Below are positions 1 through 15,968 of a stretch of 19,848 nucleotides of DNA, piece by piece (the first letter of the stretch is position 1; each line of letters starts with the position of its first letter). The notes under the pieces were generated by a model. That model saw only the letters and a program-made list of their open reading frames with translations, ran no database searches and was not told the DNA's origin. The translations under genes were made by a program, and so were the position numbers. Source of the stretch: a virus (Duplodnaviria; Heunggongvirae; Uroviricota; Caudoviricetes); the IMG/VR virus record IMGVR_UViG_2529293069_000013; one strand, 5' to 3'.

Positions 1-222
1 ACGTAACACGCGGGTTTCACCACCGCGATGACGCAGCACTTTTCCTTCAACAACCGGGGAGACATAGGCCGCCACCGGCGTTTTTCCGGTAATTTTGTCC
101 AGCATCACCTCTTCGGTATGGAAATTCACCGTACGGCGGAAAAACAGCTCCAGAAACAGCGCACGAAATTTCACTTTTTGTTCGGTATAACCGAGTAACT
201 GGCGGGTCGTAAACAATCCCAT
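1..222 (-). CDS. E: Major capsid protein E, N-terminal 74 codons (gene continues beyond window start)
   Basis: ATG at 222..220 preceded by AAGGAA RBS; translation MGLFTTRQLLGYTEQKVKFRALFLELFFRR... resembles the lambda gpE N-terminus (MSMYTTAQLLAANEQKFKFDPLFLRLFFRE); lies directly downstream of D as in lambda. Confidence 0.85.
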   Translation of the reverse strand, partial: MGLFTTRQLLGYTEQKVKFRALFLELFFRRTVNFHTEEVMLDKITGKTPVAAYVSPVVEGKVLRHRGGETRVLR

Positions 223-250
223 AAATCAGTTCCTTTCATTCAGAAATCAG

Positions 251-272
251 TCAGGCCACCGCGGTGGCCTGA
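251..272. repeat. Perfect 22-bp palindrome TCAGGCCACCGCGGTGGCCTGA in the D-E intergenic spacer
   Basis: Sequence equals its own reverse complement; sits between the D stop (280-282) and the E RBS. Confidence 0.8.
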
Positions 273-279
273 TAACGTG

Positions 280-627
280 TTACGGCAGCGCCGCGTGACT
301 CAGGGCACTGCCGGCAAAGGCATTTGCCTTTTTGTGTTCATCCACACTTTCAGGCCAGCGGATTGCCTCCGTCGCAAAGGTCCCCGACTTGTAATAGGTC
401 AGTACCGTCTCTGTGCCTTCAAGCGGCAGTACCAGTATGCCAACTGCACTACCGGCTTTCTGTCCGTCCCAGACCACCAGTTTCCCGCTGGCTTCATCCA
501 GCATCAGGGGCGTCAGTGCCGGTGTTGCCGAGGAAATCCCGCTGCTGCCTGTGGCGGTATGAGCCGGATCATTACCGGCAAAAATACGTACTTCCGCACG
601 CTGTTCAGTGATGTTTTTCGTTACCAT
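280..627 (-). CDS. D: Head decoration protein D
   Basis: 115-aa ORF with AGGAGG RBS; motifs DPAHTAT, TPLMLD, KLVVWDG, AVGIL, YKSGTF, AFAG shared with lambda gpD. Confidence 0.9.
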   Translation of the reverse strand: MVTKNITEQRAEVRIFAGNDPAHTATGSSGISSATPALTPLMLDEASGKLVVWDGQKAGSAVGILVLPLEGTETVLTYYKSGTFATEAIRWPESVDEHKKANAFAGSALSHAALP

Positions 628-663
628 ATTGTAAAAACCTCCTGTTGATGGTCAGCACTGACT

Positions 664-2169
664 TCATGGCATGGCCATGAGCATTTTCACGTCCGCATCA
701 CCGTCTGCTGACGTCTGTGGCACGCCACCCTGTACCGCAGCCGGTGAATGGTTCGCCATGATGCGTTCAAACAGGGCGGTTGTGGATGCAGAGACCGGTT
801 CTGCCTTACCTGATCCCGCAGCCAGCACAGCCCGGGCGCTCTCCACAGTCATTCCCGGGCAGGCAGCCAGCTGTTCAGCCTGCGCCTCAGCCCCTTTTGC
901 CTCATCCAGTGCCATGATCTGATCACGGAGTGAGGGTCCGGCATCCGCCTGCGGTGAAGCAGCCAGGATCGGGCGGGCTTTTTCCACCGTCATCTCCGGC
1001 ATCGCCGCCAGCGTTGCCGCCAGTTGTTCACGACCGTTCGCGTCTTCACACGCCATAATGCGATCGGCTTCACTCTGCGTGGATGCCACCGGCTGCTGCG
1101 GTGCCGCCGCAGCCAGAATCGCCCGGGCCTGTTCAACGCTCATGCCCTGTTGTCCTGCCAGCATCGTGGCAAGCTGTTCACGTCCTTTCGCTTCCTGGCA
1201 TGTCAGGATCCCCATCACTCGCTGGTTCTCCTGCGCGGCGGCTTCCGTTGCAGTTAATTGCGGCATAGTGCCTCCTCTGACATTACTGTTCAGCGCCGTG
1301 GCCATCACACTGATGGCATCCGACGCATTGACTAATTCATCCGCCAGCCCGGCATCAATGCCGGACTGACCTTCAAAAACGGCGGCCTCTGTTCCCGTGA
1401 CGGCATCAACAGACAGACCGGTAAACATCGCCACTTTTTCGGCAAACATCCGGCGCGCCGCATCAATGCGCTGCTGCATGTCCTGGCGAACCTCTGCCGG
1501 TAAGGCTTCAAACTGATTGCCATCCACCTTGTGCGCCCCTGAGTAAATCAGCGTGATATCCACACCGGCCTGCGCCAGATGACCGGCATAGCTGACATGG
1601 CTCATCATCACGCCAATGGAGCCGATACGGGATGTCTGGGTAACCAGCCGTCGGGAGCAGGCCGACGCCAGCAGCATGGCTGCAGAACAGGCCGTGTCAT
1701 TGCACAGTGCCCAGACCGGCTTCTGCTGACGGAGGCGGTAAATCATGTCAGCGCAGTCAAACGCGCCGGCGGCCTGCCCGCCCGGACTGTCAATGTCCAG
1801 CAGTACGCCCCGCACCTGGCTATCCGCCATTGCCTGCTGAAGACAGGCGACAATGCCGTCATAGCCTGTCATTCCGGAAAATGGCCGCATACCCCCCAGC
1901 CGGTGCACCAGCGTGCCGGTCACCGGCAGTACAGCAATACCGTTCACCACCCGGTAAACACGGGCCGGTCGTTTACCTCCGGCCATGTACTCGTCCGTTT
2001 CAGCCAGCATTCCGGGAGCATCAAGCTGTACCTGCTGCTGTGGTACCGAAAGACTTGCTGCCCCCATCTCGCGCCCGAGCGCGCAAAAGAAAACCCGCGC
2101 ATAGGCGGGCTCCAGAAGCAGCGGTTCATTGAATGCTGCGGCAATAATGTGTGAAAGATTACGTCTCAC
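664..2169 (-). CDS. C: Prohead protease / minor capsid protein C (S49 peptidase) with a C-terminal Nu3-like scaffold region carrying three tandem repeats; GTG start
   Basis: 501-aa ORF; N-terminal 300 aa align with lambda gpC (AFNEPLLLEPAYARVFF, VLLDIDSPGG, KPVWALCNDTACSAA, GSIGVMM, SGAHKVDGN); start codon at 2169..2167 is GTG, preceded by AAGAGGAG. Confidence 0.9.
   Translation of the reverse strand: MRRNLSHIIAAAFNEPLLLEPAYARVFFCALGREMGAASLSVPQQQVQLDAPGMLAETDEYMAGGKRPARVYRVVNGIAVLPVTGTLVHRLGGMRPFSGMTGYDGIVACLQQAMADSQVRGVLLDIDSPGGQAAGAFDCADMIYRLRQQKPVWALCNDTACSAAMLLASACSRRLVTQTSRIGSIGVMMSHVSYAGHLAQAGVDITLIYSGAHKVDGNQFEALPAEVRQDMQQRIDAARRMFAEKVAMFTGLSVDAVTGTEAAVFEGQSGIDAGLADELVNASDAISVMATALNSNVRGGTMPQLTATEAAAQENQRVMGILTCQEAKGREQLATMLAGQQGMSVEQARAILAAAAPQQPVASTQSEADRIMACEDANGREQLAATLAAMPEMTVEKARPILAASPQADAGPSLRDQIMALDEAKGAEAQAEQLAACPGMTVESARAVLAAGSGKAEPVSASTTALFERIMANHSPAAVQGGVPQTSADGDADVKMLMAMP
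818..1260. repeat. Three tandem ~141-150-bp repeats inside the C/Nu3 coding region, each encoding one RIM..EAKGREQLA..PGMTVE.AR.ILAA unit
   Basis: DNA copies begin at 818, 959 and 1109 (gcagccag..cgggc..); the protein shows three successive copies of a motif that I recall as single-copy at the lambda C/Nu3 C-terminus. Confidence 0.6.
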
Positions 2170-3706
2170 GGGGTGTTGTCTCCTCTTCCGGCCTGCGACT
2201 CTCCGCTATCTGCTGCTGATACGCCTGCGCTATCCACACCGGACGTGAGAGTCCGGCTTTTTGCCGCTCTGCAGATTCCCTGACCTGCTGGCGGAAAATG
2301 TCCTGATAATCCTCGCCCATCAGCGCCAGCTCTTTCTCATACGTGCTCAGTCCGGCCTCAATGCGCATCACCGATTCCTGAACCTCCTTGAGCCCGTCAA
2401 TGGCCATTCTTCCGGCTCCAATCCACTCTGCCCGTGACCAGGCTGATCGCGCCTGATAAAAATCAAAACGTGCCCGTGGCGGACGAATAATCCCCCGAAG
2501 AAGTGCCTCTTCCAGCCAGCAGGAAAACATCTGCGTGGCCAGCCGGGCCGCAATAAATTTTCGCCGCCCCATAAAATAGCGCCACGACTCATTGGCGGAG
2601 GCGCGGGCACTTGAGTAACTGACCTTCGAGTAATCACGGGACAACTGTTCGTAGGAAACGCCAAGACCGGCGGCGATATACCGCAGCAACGCCTGTTCAA
2701 GCGCAGAAAATCCATTGTCTGAATCCTGCGCAGTCTGTAGTTTCAGATCATCACCAGGGAAAAGGTGCGGAATTTTGACACCGCCCAGTGTCACGTTATT
2801 CGTGTCATACCAGCTGGAGAACTTCTCCAGAATATTAATAAGCGGATTATCTTTCTGCTCCTGTGGCGCGCCGGCGATATATTCAAAGGCCTTTTCGGTA
2901 TCAAGTTCACTTTCAATCGTCGCTGCATACATCGCCTTCACTATGGCCGACTGAAGCTGTGTTGCCTGCAGGGAATCGAGCATCTTCAGCCGTTCCATGA
3001 CGCTGTAAAACTGGTTGGCCCCACGGGTCTGCCCGTCCTCCACCGGCTCGAAAATATGCAGCATGGCCGGACGCCCGGTGGGAAGTTCACGCGGGATCCG
3101 TTCCCATCGTCCACTCCCGGAGAACGGAAAATCATCCTCACAGATATGGTACGCAACGGCACGGCCATATCGATCGACCTCCACCCCGGCCCGCAGAAAA
3201 CGGTTCCCCATACCGTGTCCTGGCGTGTCCACCCGTTTCGGACTCACGGCTTTAAAACGCGTACGGAATAACTGCGTGGTTTCCGTATCCCAGACCGGCT
3301 GCACAAAGATTTCGCCGTTAAACGCATGAACGCCCACACCTTCACGGATAAATTCCGTGAACGTGCGTTTTCCTTCCACGTCGATCTCGCCAGACATCCC
3401 TTCGGCGTATTCCGACCAGGCCGCCTCCACCTCATCGACAAAGCTTTTTGCTGCGGTCTCCCGCATCCCCAGCCAGCGCCAGTTCGGACGGTAGCTGATC
3501 AGAAACATATGCCCGACAATGTGATCCTTATGCAGAGCCACCGCATTAGCCGCTATTCCGTTATTGCGCACCAGATCATCTGCCCGGGCATTCCCCAGAC
3601 GCAACGCGGGCAGCAGGGCCGCATCGGCACTCTGCGCCGGTGGCAACCACTCAGCCATTTGCCCGCCAAATACCTGCACCGCCCCCGTTGTAGCTGAGAC
3701 TCTCAC
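2159..3706 (-). CDS. B: Portal protein B. The track ORF starts at GTG 3706; the lambda-like N-terminus (ATG 3752..3750) is in another frame, so there is an apparent frameshift near 3668-3670
   Basis: 515-aa ORF aligns with lambda gpB over most of its length (AALLP..GNARADDLVRNNG, FEPVEDGQTRGAN, AMYAATIESELDT, GLGVSYEQLSR). The ATG overlapping the W stop encodes MKRTPVLIDVNGVPLRESLSYNGGGAG, matching the gpB N-terminus, then hits TGA at 3653-3651. Confidence 0.85.
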   Translation of the reverse strand: MRVSATTGAVQVFGGQMAEWLPPAQSADAALLPALRLGNARADDLVRNNGIAANAVALHKDHIVGHMFLISYRPNWRWLGMRETAAKSFVDEVEAAWSEYAEGMSGEIDVEGKRTFTEFIREGVGVHAFNGEIFVQPVWDTETTQLFRTRFKAVSPKRVDTPGHGMGNRFLRAGVEVDRYGRAVAYHICEDDFPFSGSGRWERIPRELPTGRPAMLHIFEPVEDGQTRGANQFYSVMERLKMLDSLQATQLQSAIVKAMYAATIESELDTEKAFEYIAGAPQEQKDNPLINILEKFSSWYDTNNVTLGGVKIPHLFPGDDLKLQTAQDSDNGFSALEQALLRYIAAGLGVSYEQLSRDYSKVSYSSARASANESWRYFMGRRKFIAARLATQMFSCWLEEALLRGIIRPPRARFDFYQARSAWSRAEWIGAGRMAIDGLKEVQESVMRIEAGLSTYEKELALMGEDYQDIFRQQVRESAERQKAGLSRPVWIAQAYQQQIAESRRPEEETTPRET

Positions 3707-3748
3707 GAAGCGGAACGCCGTTCACATCAATCAGGACAGGCGTTCGTT

Positions 3749-3955
3749 TCATAACCTCACTCCCAGCGGACGACGGCGACGCCGGGTTGTCCCCAGTACC
3801 GACTCCGCATCATTGATCGCCCGGTTAAGCTCATCCAGAGAAGCCGCCGTATATTCAATTCTGCGACCATCTTTCTGGACAGACACCACCCGTTTACCGG
3901 TTAATAAATCAAGGCGCGCCTGACGCAGCGCCTGCAGTTCAGCGACTGTAACCAT
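3749..3955 (-). CDS. W: Head-tail joining protein W
   Basis: 68-aa ORF; TGKRV.SVQKDGRRIEYTA and the C-terminal RRRR.P motif resemble lambda gpW; its stop overlaps the portal ATG (ATGA). Confidence 0.85.
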   Translation of the reverse strand: MVTVAELQALRQARLDLLTGKRVVSVQKDGRRIEYTAASLDELNRAINDAESVLGTTRRRRRPLGVRL

Positions 3956-5867
3956 TCACTCCTCCGGACAGCTTCGCTGCCAGTTCTTTCAGGGTTGGCC
4001 GGGTCGTCTCTTCTTCCCGGGATTTTGCCAGTACAGCCAGATCAAGCTGCCAGCGTTGCACGGACACACGTAATGCCGCGTAGGCATACACCAGGCAGTC
4101 CAGCGCTTCGTTACGCCGCTTTTTGTTATCCCACAGCAGACGCATCTTTCCTTTTTCCCACTTCTCCACCAGCTCTTCCGCCACCAGTTGCTGCGCCTCT
4201 GTCTGCGAAAAAATCTCCGGATCATCAGGAAAACGGATGGCATACGACGTGGCTTCATCCGCAGGCGTGGGATCGGCTTTCATACGGGCATAGAGAATTT
4301 CTTTTGCGGTGTCCGTTCCCACTTCACACAGATACACGCCCCGCTGATTGCGGGTTTTCGGCATGGTGATCACCGGCTTGCCATAGACAGACGCGCCTTT
4401 TACCGGCAGCACCCGGAAAACACCGTAGTTTTTTTGATCTCTGATAACAATTTCACCATCGATCCCCCCGGTGTCCCAGCAGACACGGGAAATAGTCATT
4501 TCGGTGCCATCCGCATGGCGGTATTTTTTGTTGATCGCCGCATCCACACGTAACAGCGTCTCTTCCTCATCAGGACGCCCCATAATGATGATTTTATCCA
4601 CCAGAAAGGCTTCCTCTCCCGGAGCCCATCCCCAGACATACATCTCAAAACGGTTTCGCTGCGAGTCAATGCCCGCCGTCAGATAAACCACCCGGGCAGG
4701 CACCGCCGCCGTGTAACGCACCACCTTATCCATCAGTACCTGGTGATCGAGTTTTTCGCCCACGGCCTCTTCCCAGGTCTCGCCCAGCGTGGTGTTCACA
4801 AAGGTTTTCAGGCCGTTGGGATCTTTCAGTGCATCCAGCCAGTCATAGACAATCTGTACCCAGGTGGTGAACGGACTGTACGCCGTCCAGATATGGAACA
4901 TGATGGAGCGCGGCGGCGGAATTTCATCACCCCGGGCGCTGAAAAACGTCAGACCGTCACGGGTCCACATGCCCGTGTTTTCACAGATCCACCGCCCGTT
5001 GCTCTGGTCCAGTTCAGACTGATGGATCACGCAGCCATGATGTTCACAGAGGTAGAAAACACTTTCAGGGCTGTCCTTCTCCCATTTAAGCCCAAAAGGC
5101 GTGGACTCATCGCCAAATTTCAGATACTGCGCCTCCCCACAGTGCGGGCAGGGCACATAAAAACGCATAAAATGCGCCGACTCGTTAGCGGCTTTTTCGA
5201 TCTGGCAGGTGCCTTTGATTTTAGGCGTCGAGCCGCGAATGGATTTTGGCCACACCGACCCCTCAATACGCTTATCCCCCAGCAGGGTTGGCGAGCCCTC
5301 TTTTTCGACATCCGGCTCGAACGAGGAAAGTTCGTCATAGCAGACCACGTCAACGGATTTTTCACGGTAGTTTTTGGCGGCAGCGCCGCCCAGGCACCAG
5401 AAACCGACGCCCGATGAAAAGCGTTTCAGCGTGAGAGTATTGTCACGATGTTTACGACCCAGCCATGGGGAAAGGTCTTTCAGGCATGGCACGTTCCGAA
5501 TCGTCGCCTCCACGTGAGACTTCATAAAATCTTCAGCGGCAGAATCCGTGGGCTGAAAAAGCAGACTGTTTCGGGATTTATGCTCAATAAAATACCCGAC
5601 CACCCCCAGCAACATCTTTGTATAGCCAACACGGGCAGATTTAATCAGATTAACAGTGCGGATCTGATCATTCCCCATACTGTTCATGATGGCGATCTGG
5701 AATGGCAGCGTTTTCCATTCGCCCTCACCATATGAAGATTCTTTAGGCAGATAATAATTTTGATCAGCCCATTCAACTGGCGTCACCGGCAATGCCCTTA
5801 TCAGGGGCTGTAATGCAGTTGTGACAGCGCTCATCATATTATTCAGTTGTTGCTCTGATATATTCAT
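3939..5867 (-). CDS. A: Terminase large subunit A; start taken at ATG 5867 (MNISEQQ...), not the upstream in-frame start at 5924
   Basis: Aligns with lambda gpA throughout (VEWADQNYYLPKES, KRIEGSVWPKSIRGSTPK, ATPase and nuclease motifs); the N-terminus MNIS matches lambda; overlaps the Nu1 3' end as in lambda. Confidence 0.9.
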   Translation of the reverse strand: MNISEQQLNNMMSAVTTALQPLIRALPVTPVEWADQNYYLPKESSYGEGEWKTLPFQIAIMNSMGNDQIRTVNLIKSARVGYTKMLLGVVGYFIEHKSRNSLLFQPTDSAAEDFMKSHVEATIRNVPCLKDLSPWLGRKHRDNTLTLKRFSSGVGFWCLGGAAAKNYREKSVDVVCYDELSSFEPDVEKEGSPTLLGDKRIEGSVWPKSIRGSTPKIKGTCQIEKAANESAHFMRFYVPCPHCGEAQYLKFGDESTPFGLKWEKDSPESVFYLCEHHGCVIHQSELDQSNGRWICENTGMWTRDGLTFFSARGDEIPPPRSIMFHIWTAYSPFTTWVQIVYDWLDALKDPNGLKTFVNTTLGETWEEAVGEKLDHQVLMDKVVRYTAAVPARVVYLTAGIDSQRNRFEMYVWGWAPGEEAFLVDKIIIMGRPDEEETLLRVDAAINKKYRHADGTEMTISRVCWDTGGIDGEIVIRDQKNYGVFRVLPVKGASVYGKPVITMPKTRNQRGVYLCEVGTDTAKEILYARMKADPTPADEATSYAIRFPDDPEIFSQTEAQQLVAEELVEKWEKGKMRLLWDNKKRRNEALDCLVYAYAALRVSVQRWQLDLAVLAKSREEETTRPTLKELAAKLSGGVNGYSR

Positions 5868-7055: not shown

Positions 7056-7370
7056 TTAGCATTTTTTTGACCGCGCGTTTCCGGACGTATTCTGTTCTCC
7101 TGTCCCTTTATATCGTCGGAATACCCGCCGCTCTTCAAATCCCATTCCCAACTCAGAATGTAGTCTGTTGACCGCTTGTTTTATTTCGGTCAGGTTCACC
7201 GGTGAAACCGGAGTCCGGCGCGCCTTACGCAAACACTCTGCTCGTTTCTGTGCCGCCACTTTTCTTTTCTGGTCATCACTTAGCTGTACCATCACTTTTG
7301 CCCATCGTTCAGCTGCTCTCCGGTACAGTCCTTTTTTCTCCAGACATTCTGCCACGTGATCATGTAGCAT
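7056..7370 (-). CDS. PerC-family (Pch-like) transcriptional activator, 104 aa
   Basis: The N-terminus (LEKKGLYRRAAERWAKVM) fits my recollection of the conserved PerC/Pch N-terminal motif, and 104 aa is the Pch length; strong RBS GGAGGT; located in the moron position between lysis genes and cos. Confidence 0.5.
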   Translation of the reverse strand: MLHDHVAECLEKKGLYRRAAERWAKVMVQLSDDQKRKVAAQKRAECLRKARRTPVSPVNLTEIKQAVNRLHSELGMGFEERRVFRRYKGTGEQNTSGNARSKKC

Positions 7371-12031: not shown

Positions 12032-12199
12032 TCAAGCATTATGCAGGCTGTTTCTTTTTATCACCGGCCACAGCAATACCATAATGCCGCAGACCAGCAC
12101 CCCATCCGCCAGCACCGACATGATTCTGCTGGTGAAATCCACCATCACCACCAGAAACAGCAGGAGTGCAGCCACAGTCAGGCGCAGTTTTACCGTCAC
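12032..12199 (-). CDS. Possible small two-helix membrane protein (54 aa from GTG 12199, or 37 aa from ATG 12145) immediately downstream of the TerB-like gene
   Basis: GTG overlaps the TerB-like TGA (GTGA) with GGAG 9 nt upstream; translation ..TVAALLLFLVVMVDFTSRIMSVLADGVLVCGIMVLLWPVIKRNSLHNA; not in the track (below 60 aa). Confidence 0.3.
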   Translation of the reverse strand: MTVKLRLTVAALLLFLVVMVDFTSRIMSVLADGVLVCGIMVLLWPVIKRNSLHNA

Positions 12200-12628
12200 A
12201 GGTAATTCTCCAGACGAAGACCCAGAACACCGGCAATCTCTTCCAGCACCTTGCGCTCTTCCGGCTCAATTTCGCCGTCTGCCTCCGCAATGGCCACCGC
12301 CACATCCAGCACATCTTCCGCTTCACGCGTATCGTGTTTCACATCCTCGATCTCACGTAACGCCGCACGACGACCAGTTTTAAAGTTCGTATCCAGCTGA
12401 CCGATAATGGTTGCGCTAATCGCATTAATTTCTGACGTAAACGCGTACAGCGCAGGCTGATTACGCAGTACCTGTTCGATCTTCGCTTTCTAGGAAGCCT
12501 CACATTCACCATCTGCACAGGCCACCAGGTATGCGGCGTTAATCACCACCTGTGCCAGATCGCGTTTTTCAAACTTTTTAATTTCCGTTGCCGCTCTGCG
12601 GGCTTTTTTTACCAAAAATACCAAACAT
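12196..12628 (-). pseudogene. TerB-like (tellurite-resistance TerB domain) gene disrupted by an in-frame amber codon at 12492..12490; the ATG start is also out of frame with the body across an A7 run (12604..12610) unless the start is TTG 12624
   Basis: Hand translation MFGIFGKK / ARRAATEIKKFEKRDLAQVVINAAYLVACADGECEAS * KAKIEQVL...DVLDVAVAIAEADGEIEPEERKVLEEIAGVLGL shows the TerB-type duplicated ADGE..E..K...L motif; TAG is in frame; AAGGAA RBS 7 nt before the ATG. Confidence 0.6.
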
Positions 12629-12797: not shown

Positions 12798-12874
12798 TGG
12801 TGCGTTGTACTGGGTTCGAACCAGTGACCGATTGCTTAGAAGGCAATTGCTCTGTCCGGCTGAGCTAAAAACGC
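12798..12874 (-). tRNA. tRNA-Arg (anticodon UCU)
   Basis: 77-nt cloverleaf GCGTTTT-TA-GCTC..GAGC-ATTGC-CTTCTAA-GCAAT-..-CTGG-TTCGAAC-CCAG-ACAACGC-A-CCA; anticodon loop CU-UCU-AA. Confidence 0.85.
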
Positions 12875-12887
12875 AGAATACCGATAA

Positions 12888-12964
12888 TGGACCGCCATCG
12901 GAGACTCGAACCCCGCGAAACCAGCTTCGAAGGCTGGCGTTCTATCCCGATGAGCTAATGGCGG
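12888..12964 (-). tRNA. tRNA-Arg (anticodon UCG)
   Basis: 77-nt cloverleaf with anticodon arm CCAGC-CTTCGAA-GCTGG, T-arm CGGGG-TTCGAGT-CTCCG and a 7-bp acceptor stem plus TCCA; the D-stem has one mismatch. Confidence 0.75.
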
Positions 12965-12971
12965 TATGTGA

Positions 12972-13047
12972 TGGTGGCCCTTGCTGGATTTGAACCAGCG
13001 GCCTGGCGATTATGAGTCGCTCGCTCTCACCACTGAGCTAAAGGGCC
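12972..13047 (-). tRNA. tRNA-Ile2 (anticodon CAU, ileX/ileZ-like; Met cannot be excluded)
   Basis: GGCCCTTTAGCTCAGTGGTGAGAGCGAGCGACTCATAATCGCCAGGCCGCTGGTTCAAATCCAGCAAGGGCCACCA is very similar to E. coli ileX as I recall it; anticodon loop CU-CAU-AA. Confidence 0.85.
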
Positions 13048-15812: not shown

Positions 15813-15968
15813 TTACTCCTCAGGTTCGTAAGCTGTGAAGACAGCGACCTCCGTCTGGCCGGTTCGGATTCGTACCTCGCAGAGGTCTTTCCTCGTTACC
15901 AGTGCCGTCACTATGACGGTTAAACAGATGACGATCAGGGCGATTAACATCGCCTTTTGCTGCTTCAT
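15813..15968 (-). CDS. hok: Hok/Gef-family type I toxin, 51 aa
   Basis: MKQQKAMLIALIVICLTVIVTALVTRKDLCEVRIRTGQTEVAVFTAYEPEE against plasmid R1 Hok [58 protein letters not shown] RBS 9 nt upstream of ATG 15968. Confidence 0.8.
   Translation of the reverse strand: MKQQKAMLIALIVICLTVIVTALVTRKDLCEVRIRTGQTEVAVFTAYEPEE

What the first reader, a model, noticed from the sequence alone, without database searches (positions are those of the whole stretch)
3651..3752. Portal gene N-terminus is split across two frames at a short homopolymer
The ATG at 3752..3750, overlapping the W stop, encodes MKRTPVLIDVNGVPLRESLSYNGGGAG, which matches the lambda gpB N-terminus, then stops at 3653..3651. The rest of the portal continues in another frame from around 3668..3670 (AAA/TTT run). 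This is either a frameshift mutation (truncated or restart-dependent portal, possibly a defective prophage), a sequencing indel, or a lineage-specific start.
Basis: partly seen in the sequence, partly recalled or inferred. Interest (0 to 1): 0.45.

Follow-up and report, generated by a model that had tools for sequence, protein, structure and literature searches.

The report
Single-base indel splits prophage portal gene
One extra base found only in this draft E. coli contig breaks an otherwise ordinary lambda/phage-21-type portal gene into two frames, and it is most likely a sequencing or assembly error rather than biology.

Summary
The frame split is real in the sequence as deposited. The ATG at 3752..3750 overlaps the gpW stop and encodes 27 native portal residues. 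Six out-of-frame codons follow, then TGA at 3653..3651, and the remaining 503 codons run in another frame to 2159. The cause is one extra base at 3672 (T on the coding strand), between GG and ATTT. The TTT run has the same length in all relatives, so this is not a homopolymer change. Deleting the base restores a 530-aa portal identical to that of E. coli O157 strain 493/89 and 99.4% identical in DNA to phage 21. The extra base is absent from 2,065 copies in 1,419 complete E. coli genomes, 19 phages and 120 viral contigs, and the pattern containing it has no hit in three public collections. The window is a whole contig (AKLT01000021.1) of a draft assembly. It carries two further private single-base indels 755 and 774 bases away in the terminase gene. 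One independent read-based contig matches the window over 5,779 bases with no substitutions and exactly these three indels. Six relatives differ among themselves only by substitutions. Best reading: sequencing or assembly error (about 0.85). Rival: a strain-private inactivating frameshift. An alternative start and a programmed frameshift are rejected. Interest is low.

The parts
3651..3752 (-). N-terminal portal fragment ORF: 27 native codons (MKRTPVLIDVNGVPLRESLSYNGGGAG), 6 out-of-frame codons (IWRANG) and TGA at 3653..3651
   Evidence: The first 27 aa are identical to phage 21 and E. coli 493/89 portals.
3672..3672 (-). The extra base (T on the coding strand, A on the + strand) that causes the frame split. 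Relatives read GCAGG-ATTTGG; the window reads GCAGGTATTTGG.
   Evidence: Alignments. It is absent from all 2,065 places in 1,419 complete E. coli genomes, 19 phage records and 120 IMG/VR loci. The pattern containing it has 0 hits in the viral, genome and metagenome collections.
2159..3670 (-). Portal body: codons 28-530 plus the stop, in the other frame, starting with FGGQMAEWLPP...
   Evidence: After base 3672 is removed, the gene gives a 530-aa protein that matches Pfam PF05136 (E 7.8e-101, residues 29-397) and lambda gpB (PDB 8k38, E 1.5e-214).
3755..3764 (-). Shine-Dalgarno region (GGGAGTGAGG) of the native portal start
   Evidence: Predicted duplex with the anti-SD of -9.0 kcal/mol. The phage 21 record annotates a ribosome-binding site at the matching position, 8-11 nt before the portal ATG.
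3656..3658 (-). First ATG in the body frame (Met32 of the native protein), 2 nt upstream of the TGA that ends the fragment (ATGGCTGA). It is the only plausible re-initiation point if the frameshift were real.
   Evidence: weak SD-like GGCGGG, -5.3 kcal/mol. A gene caller chose this ATG in a Logan contig that has a different frameshift.
3749..3955 (-). gpW-like head-tail joining (adaptor) gene. Its stop overlaps the portal ATG.
   Evidence: Pfam PF02831, E 1.2e-22; annotation of relatives.
3939..5867 (-). Terminase large subunit gene. It carries two further private single-base indels (extra A at + strand 4427; missing A at 4445/4446) that shift 6 codons (YQRSKKH becomes IRDQKNY).
   Evidence: None of 2,883 places in 1,811 genomes is identical over the 84 bases. 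None of 107-108 IMG/VR loci has either indel. The protein WP_024217612.1 is known from this one contig only.
664..2169 (-). S49 protease/scaffold gene (lambda gpC-like). Its start overlaps the end of the portal gene.
   Evidence: Pfam PF01343. The exact protein is found in many other contigs, all of which have a 530-aa portal.

Best explanation
The gene is an ordinary phage-21-type (lambda family) portal gene in a lambdoid prophage of an O157-like E. coli. In this deposited draft contig (AKLT01000021.1, assembly GCA_000267125.1) it contains one spurious extra base at 3672. That base moves the reading frame after codon 27 and creates a stop 6 codons later. The extra base is most probably a consensus error of sequencing or assembly. 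On that reading the real gene is intact, 530 aa long, translated from the ATG at 3752 behind a strong Shine-Dalgarno sequence, and translationally coupled to gpW through the ATGA overlap. Shown here: the extra base, its uniqueness, and its clustering with two other private indels. Inferred: that the cause is technical rather than mutational.
For: 1. Removing base 3672 gives a portal identical to WP_001374583.1 of strain 493/89, and 700 of the 701 bases match many genomes.
2. The extra base is private. No exact match to an 81-base query exists among 2,065 places in 1,419 complete genomes, 19 phages or 120 IMG/VR loci. The 32-base pattern containing it has no hit in viral, genome or metagenome contigs, whereas the pattern without it hits at least 120 viral contigs.
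3. Two more private single-base indels lie 755 and 774 bases away in the terminase gene.
4. Logan contig SRR25865695_397 equals the window over 5,779 bases, with 0 substitutions and exactly these 3 indels.
5. Six relatives differ from each other by 0-18 substitutions and 0 indels over the same 5.8 kb. Divergence by indels alone is the signature of read or consensus error, not of evolution.
6. The window is a short draft contig that ends inside genes shared by several prophages of the same genome. Relatives carry 1-5 copies (median 2) of this module, which is a setting prone to consensus errors.
Against: No reads were available, so the error is inferred and not observed. The extra base is not in a homopolymer, the commonest site of 454-type or nanopore-type indel errors. 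The sequencing method of this assembly was not retrieved (one search found no paper). Portal genes do decay in prophages: 8 of 103 complete IMG/VR copies are truncated elsewhere, and another sample has a G5-to-G4 frameshift 14 bases upstream. A real lesion would therefore not be unusual.
Confidence: 0.85

Rival explanations
1. The insertion is a real, strain-private +1 frameshift mutation and the prophage is defective. Translation from ATG 3752 gives a 33-residue peptide. No full-length portal is made, so no procapsids can be initiated or packaged. At best a little N-terminally truncated protein arises by termination-reinitiation at ATG 3658 (ATGGCTGA) or at GTG 3679.
For: The base is present in the deposited sequence. 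Prophage portal genes are sometimes disrupted: 8 of 103 IMG/VR copies and the Logan contig SRR25467351_42. The site is not a homopolymer, which argues slightly against a classic homopolymer read error.
Against: Three private indels lie within 775 bases, with no private substitution in 5.8 kb. That would require three independent rare events in a lineage that has not otherwise diverged. The terminase pair restores its own frame, which implies selection for function in a prophage whose portal is supposedly dead. No other assembly of any kind shows the base.
Confidence: 0.13
2. The split is a programmed or tolerated +1 ribosomal frameshift, or transcriptional slippage, that still yields full-length portal. 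One possible route is a +1 shift at GGC-UGA (3656..3651), giving GGGAG-IWRANG-EWLPP...
For: The zero-frame stop is only 6 codons after the extra base. A G-rich SD-like GGCGGG lies just upstream. A stop codon in the A site can stimulate +1 shifting, as in prfB (established knowledge, recalled and not tested here).
Against: The arrangement is not conserved. Every relative has the uninterrupted frame. There is no slippery motif: tRNA-Gly on GGC or GGU cannot re-pair in the +1 frame. There is no run of A or T of the length needed for transcriptional slippage (only T3). The conserved FGGQMA residues would be replaced.
Confidence: 0.01
3. The portal of this lineage has its own start, at GTG 3706 or ATG 3658, and the upstream ORF is unrelated.
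For: The longest mechanical ORF in the body frame starts at GTG 3706.
Against: The upstream 27 codons are identical to the N-terminus of intact orthologues. Phage 21 and lambda portals start at the equivalent ATG behind an annotated RBS. GTG 3706 has no SD (-1.7 kcal/mol).
Confidence: 0.01

Closest known systems
Phage 21 portal gene (gene 4; OL657228.1 CPT_21_04, M81255.1)
   Same: The two are 99.4% identical over the 701 bases around the site, with the same gpW-portal ATGA overlap, the same RBS position and the same first 70 residues.
   Different: Phage 21 has an uninterrupted 530-codon frame. The window has one extra base after codon 27.
Lambda gpB portal protein (NP_040583.1; PDB 8k38 and related entries)
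   Same: The repaired protein aligns over residues 5-523 with E 1.5e-214. It shares the GGGxGFGGQ motif and the gene order A-W-B-C. The lambda record annotates a 22-residue leader that is removed, and the virion model begins at residue 24 (PMC10721106). By alignment, the window's frameshift falls about 7 residues into the mature, ordered wing domain.
   Different: This is a different allele (phage-21 type), 530 aa against 533 aa. Processing of its N-terminus is inferred by homology only.
Portal of E. coli O157 strain 493/89 prophage (WP_001374583.1, NZ_CP038412.1)
   Same: The whole 19.8-kb window matches with 10 substitutions and 3 single-base indels. The portal is identical once base 3672 is removed.
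   Different: It is annotated as an intact 530-aa gene, with no extra base.
Frameshifted pseudogenes in defective lambdoid prophages of EHEC
   Same: If the base is real, this is a single-base frameshift that inactivates a head gene of a lambdoid prophage. This kind of lesion is common (recalled from the literature on O157 prophage pools; here only the 8 of 103 truncated IMG/VR copies bear on it).
   Different: Here the lesion is confined to one draft contig and comes with other indel-only differences, which points to an artefact.

Membership tests
Lambda-family phage portal protein (Pfam PF05136, Phage_portal_2) | Significant match to the family profile above the curated cut-off | tested here: met
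   The repaired 530-aa protein scores 338.2 bits against a cut-off of 32.9 (E 7.8e-101), covering residues 29-397 and profile positions 2-354 of 354. The 499-aa body alone also carries PF05136.
Lambda-family phage portal protein (Pfam PF05136, Phage_portal_2) | Full-length homology to an experimentally solved portal (lambda gpB) | tested here: met
   PDB 8k38_A, E 1.5e-214; query residues 5-523 align with chain residues 7-527.
Lambda-family phage portal protein (Pfam PF05136, Phage_portal_2) | Position in the head module: terminase large subunit, gpW, portal, S49 protease/scaffold, decoration protein, major capsid protein | tested here: met
   Pfam hits for the neighbouring genes and the annotation of near-identical loci.
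Lambda-family phage portal protein (Pfam PF05136, Phage_portal_2) | One uninterrupted reading frame of about 530 codons | tested here: not met
   As deposited, the frame breaks after codon 27. It is met once base 3672 is removed.
Programmed ribosomal frameshift site | The two-frame arrangement is conserved among relatives | tested here: not met
   No relative has the split: 2,065 genomic places, 19 phages and 120 viral loci all keep a single frame.
Programmed ribosomal frameshift site | A slippery sequence that allows tRNA re-pairing in the new frame | tested here: not met
   The sequence GGU-AUU-UGG-CGG-GCA-AAU-GGC-UGA offers no +1 re-pairing for the P-site tRNAs (read directly).
Genuine pseudogene (defective prophage) | The lesion is present in the organism's DNA, shown by reads or an independent assembly of the same strain | not testable with these tools
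   No reads were available. The exact proteins that carry the lesions (33-aa peptide, 515-aa ORF, variant TerL) occur in no source other than this contig.

The most novel reading that the evidence does not exclude
The extra base is real, and the strain still makes a working portal by termination-reinitiation at the overlapping ATGGCTGA (ATG 3658 with TGA 3651-3653). That protein would lack the cleaved leader and the first ~12 residues of the mature wing domain, including the conserved GGGxGFGGQ motif. This would show that the leader and motif are dispensable for procapsid initiation.
Probability: 0.02. Interest if true: 0.3.

Novelty: not a real feature. Interest (0 to 1): 0.06.

Why it matters
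It matters mainly as quality control. Taken at face value, the contig would be read as a defective prophage or an unusual portal start. The evidence says the gene is a standard phage-21-type portal and the split is a private single-base indel in a draft assembly. If the base were real, it would mean only that one prophage copy in one strain cannot build capsids, which is common in EHEC prophage pools. There is no new mechanism either way.

Tried and rejected
- Searched for the extra-base version elsewhere: megablast of 81 bases against 5,426 complete E. coli genomes, the phage collection, and exact-pattern scans of the viral, GTDB genome and metagenome contigs. Nothing was found.
- Looked up exact proteins to find independent assemblies with the lesion. 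The 33-aa peptide, the 515-aa ORF from GTG 3706 and the 506-aa ORF from GTG 3679 are not in the collection.
- The 499-aa product from ATG 3658 exists in one Logan contig. That contig has a different lesion, G5 to G4, so it does not support the window's base.
- Searched the literature for the assembly accession to learn the sequencing platform. There were no relevant papers, so the platform and strain name remain unknown.
- Rejected a homopolymer slip. The TTT run is unchanged and the inserted T sits between G and A.
- Rejected an alternative start at GTG 3706. It has no SD, and the upstream codons are conserved portal sequence.
- Rejected a programmed frameshift. The split is not conserved and there is no slippery motif.

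Full report
**Observation**

On the minus strand, the ATG at 3752..3750 overlaps the TGA (3751..3749) of a 68-aa gpW-like ORF (3749..3955). It opens a 33-codon ORF, MKRTPVLIDVNGVPLRESLSYNGGGAG-IWRANG, which ends at TGA 3653..3651. The rest of a portal protein (FGGQMAEWLPP... to the stop at 2159) is in another frame.

**What the gene is**

The region is the head module of a lambdoid prophage of the phage-21 type.
- The 701 bases around the site are 99.4% identical to phage 21 and 99.9% identical to hundreds of E. coli genomes.
- In every one of those records the matching stretch is 700 bases long, not 701.
- Pfam assigns the neighbouring genes to GpA_ATPase/GpA_nuclease (terminase large subunit), gpW and Peptidase_S49. 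It assigns the repaired gene to Phage_portal_2 (PF05136; E 7.8e-101, residues 29-397).
- The repaired protein aligns with lambda gpB over residues 5-523 (PDB 8k38, E 1.5e-214).

**The lesion**

Alignment with E. coli O26 11368 and with O157 strain 493/89 shows a single difference. Relatives read GCAGG-ATTTGG and the window reads GCAGGTATTTGG. The extra base is window position 3672 (T on the coding strand, A on the + strand). Its placement is unambiguous, because removing the neighbouring A would give GGTTTT, which no relative has. The TTT run at 3670..3668 has three bases in all sequences, so this is not a homopolymer length change. Removing base 3672 gives a 530-aa portal identical to that annotated in 493/89 (WP_001374583.1) and identical to phage 21 over the first 70 residues printed.

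**Where orthologues start**

In phage 21 the portal CDS starts at the ATG that overlaps the stop of the gpW homologue, with an annotated ribosome-binding site 8-11 nt upstream. Lambda B has the same layout. Of the 103 IMG/VR loci (out of 120 fetched) in which the ORF is complete, 95 encode a 530-aa protein starting MKR..., and the first 40 residues are nearly invariant.

The native start has a strong Shine-Dalgarno sequence (GGGAGTGAGG, -9.0 kcal/mol). GTG 3706 has none (-1.7 kcal/mol).

**How private the extra base is**

- An 81-base query centred on the base finds 2,065 places in 1,419 complete E. coli genomes. None is identical; the best is 98.8%, which corresponds to the one gap.
- All 19 phage records lack the base.
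- All 120 IMG/VR loci lack it, across a dozen sequence variants of the surrounding bases.
- A 32-base pattern containing it has no exact hit in the viral, GTDB-genome or metagenome collections. The pattern without it hits at least 120 viral contigs.

**Source and context**

Exact-protein look-ups show that the window is the entire 19,848-base contig AKLT01000021.1 of draft assembly GCA_000267125.1. The strain name and sequencing platform were not retrieved. In the gene calls on record for that contig, only a 257-aa C-terminal piece of the portal (window 2159-2932) is called.

Against the closest complete genome (493/89), the window has 10 substitutions and three single-base indels: 3672, an extra A at 4427, and a missing A at 4445/4446. 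The last two lie in the terminase large-subunit gene. Together they shift six codons, so that YQRSKKH becomes IRDQKNY. Both are private. None of 2,883 places in 1,811 genomes is identical over 84 bases, and none of 107-108 IMG/VR loci has either indel. The resulting protein, WP_024217612.1, is known from this contig alone.

Four of the five substitutions that could be checked (25, 63, 488, 490) are ordinary shared polymorphisms. The fifth, G1042, was absent from the 90 IMG/VR loci aligned there. It is nevertheless not private, because the exact S49 protein occurs in many other contigs and contig L136 matches that base.

**The decisive comparison**

The exact S49 protease protein of the window occurs in many other contigs, and every one of the nine other places shown has a 530-aa portal. 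One of them, Logan contig SRR25865695_397, is identical to the window over window positions 1..5779 with zero substitutions and exactly the three indels. Over the same 5.8 kb, six relatives differ from each other by 0-18 substitutions and no indels, while the window differs from each by the same three indel columns.

A sequence that differs from its closest relative only by three single-base indels within 775 bases, two of which cancel each other, shows the pattern of consensus error rather than of evolutionary divergence. The setting fits too. This is a short draft contig whose ends lie in genes present in several near-identical prophage copies per genome (1-5 places per genome, median 2).

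**Consequence if the base were real (inference)**

Translation from ATG 3752 would end after 33 residues. The lambda record annotates a 22-residue leader that is removed from gpB. The lambda virion model starts at residue 24, which begins the wing domain (PMC10721106). By alignment (lambda numbering = window numbering + 3 in this stretch), the frameshift after Gly27 lies about 7 residues into the mature, ordered protein, inside the conserved GGGxGFGGQ motif.

The only plausible rescue is re-initiation. It could occur at ATG 3658, which sits 2 nt before the TGA (ATGGCTGA) behind a weak SD-like GGCGGG (-5.3 kcal/mol). It could also occur at GTG 3679, which has a G5 run only 2 nt upstream. Either product would lack part of the ordered N-terminus. 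Its function is untested.

**Programmed frameshifting**

This was considered and rejected. The split is not conserved, no tRNA can re-pair in the +1 frame at GGU-AUU or GGC-UGA, and there is no long A or T run for transcriptional slippage.

**Verdict**

The best explanation is a sequencing or assembly indel in a draft contig (about 0.85), and the rival is a strain-private inactivating frameshift (about 0.13). Either way the gene is a known phage-21/lambda-family portal and nothing new is implied. Interest is low.

Noticed in passing
window 4427 and 4445/4446 (terminase large subunit gene, 3939-5867, minus strand): Two private, mutually compensating single-base indels 19 bases apart change residues 475-481 from YQRSKKH to IRDQKNY. 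The resulting protein, WP_024217612.1, is known only from this contig. They are probably further consensus errors.
   Followed up: yes
L123 5892-6040 (Logan SRR25467351_42), equivalent to window 3686-3682: An unrelated sample has a different portal frameshift, G5 to G4 in the GGGGG run 14 bases upstream of the window's extra base. The gene caller there starts the portal at the ATG equivalent to window 3658, giving 499 aa.
   Followed up: partly
IMG/VR loci L003-L122: In 8 of 103 loci where the portal ORF is complete, it ends early (43-467 aa) because of other lesions. This gives a rough base rate for disrupted or mis-sequenced copies of this portal in public contigs.
   Followed up: no
window 12798-13047, minus strand: Three tRNA genes lie between the Q antiterminator gene and the lysis genes: Arg-TCT, Arg-TCG and a CAT-anticodon tRNA. 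ARAGORN calls the last one Met, and the RefSeq annotation of strain 493/89 calls it Ile. In Stx phages this is where the stx genes sit; none are present here.
   Followed up: partly
window about 12196-12624, minus strand: A TerB-family gene is annotated as a pseudogene with an internal stop in the near-identical 493/89 locus. The window has no difference from 493/89 in this stretch, so it carries the same stop.
   Followed up: no
window 2159-2932 (gene calls on record for AKLT01000021.1): The gene call on record for the portal in this contig covers only the C-terminal 257 aa, although an ORF of 515 codons is open. The reason is unknown.
   Followed up: no
L129, L127, L131, L132, L136 (second copies of the head module in 493/89 and other genomes): In several relatives a second copy of this head module has the major capsid gene cut to 88 aa and joined directly to tail-tube genes. 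This looks like a deletion that removes the head-completion genes, so that copy is truly defective.
   Followed up: no
window 7056-7370 (minus) and 15813-15968 (minus): The prophage carries a PerC-family regulator gene and a hokD toxin gene, as annotated in the 493/89 locus. These are ordinary cargo of EHEC lambdoid prophages.
   Followed up: no
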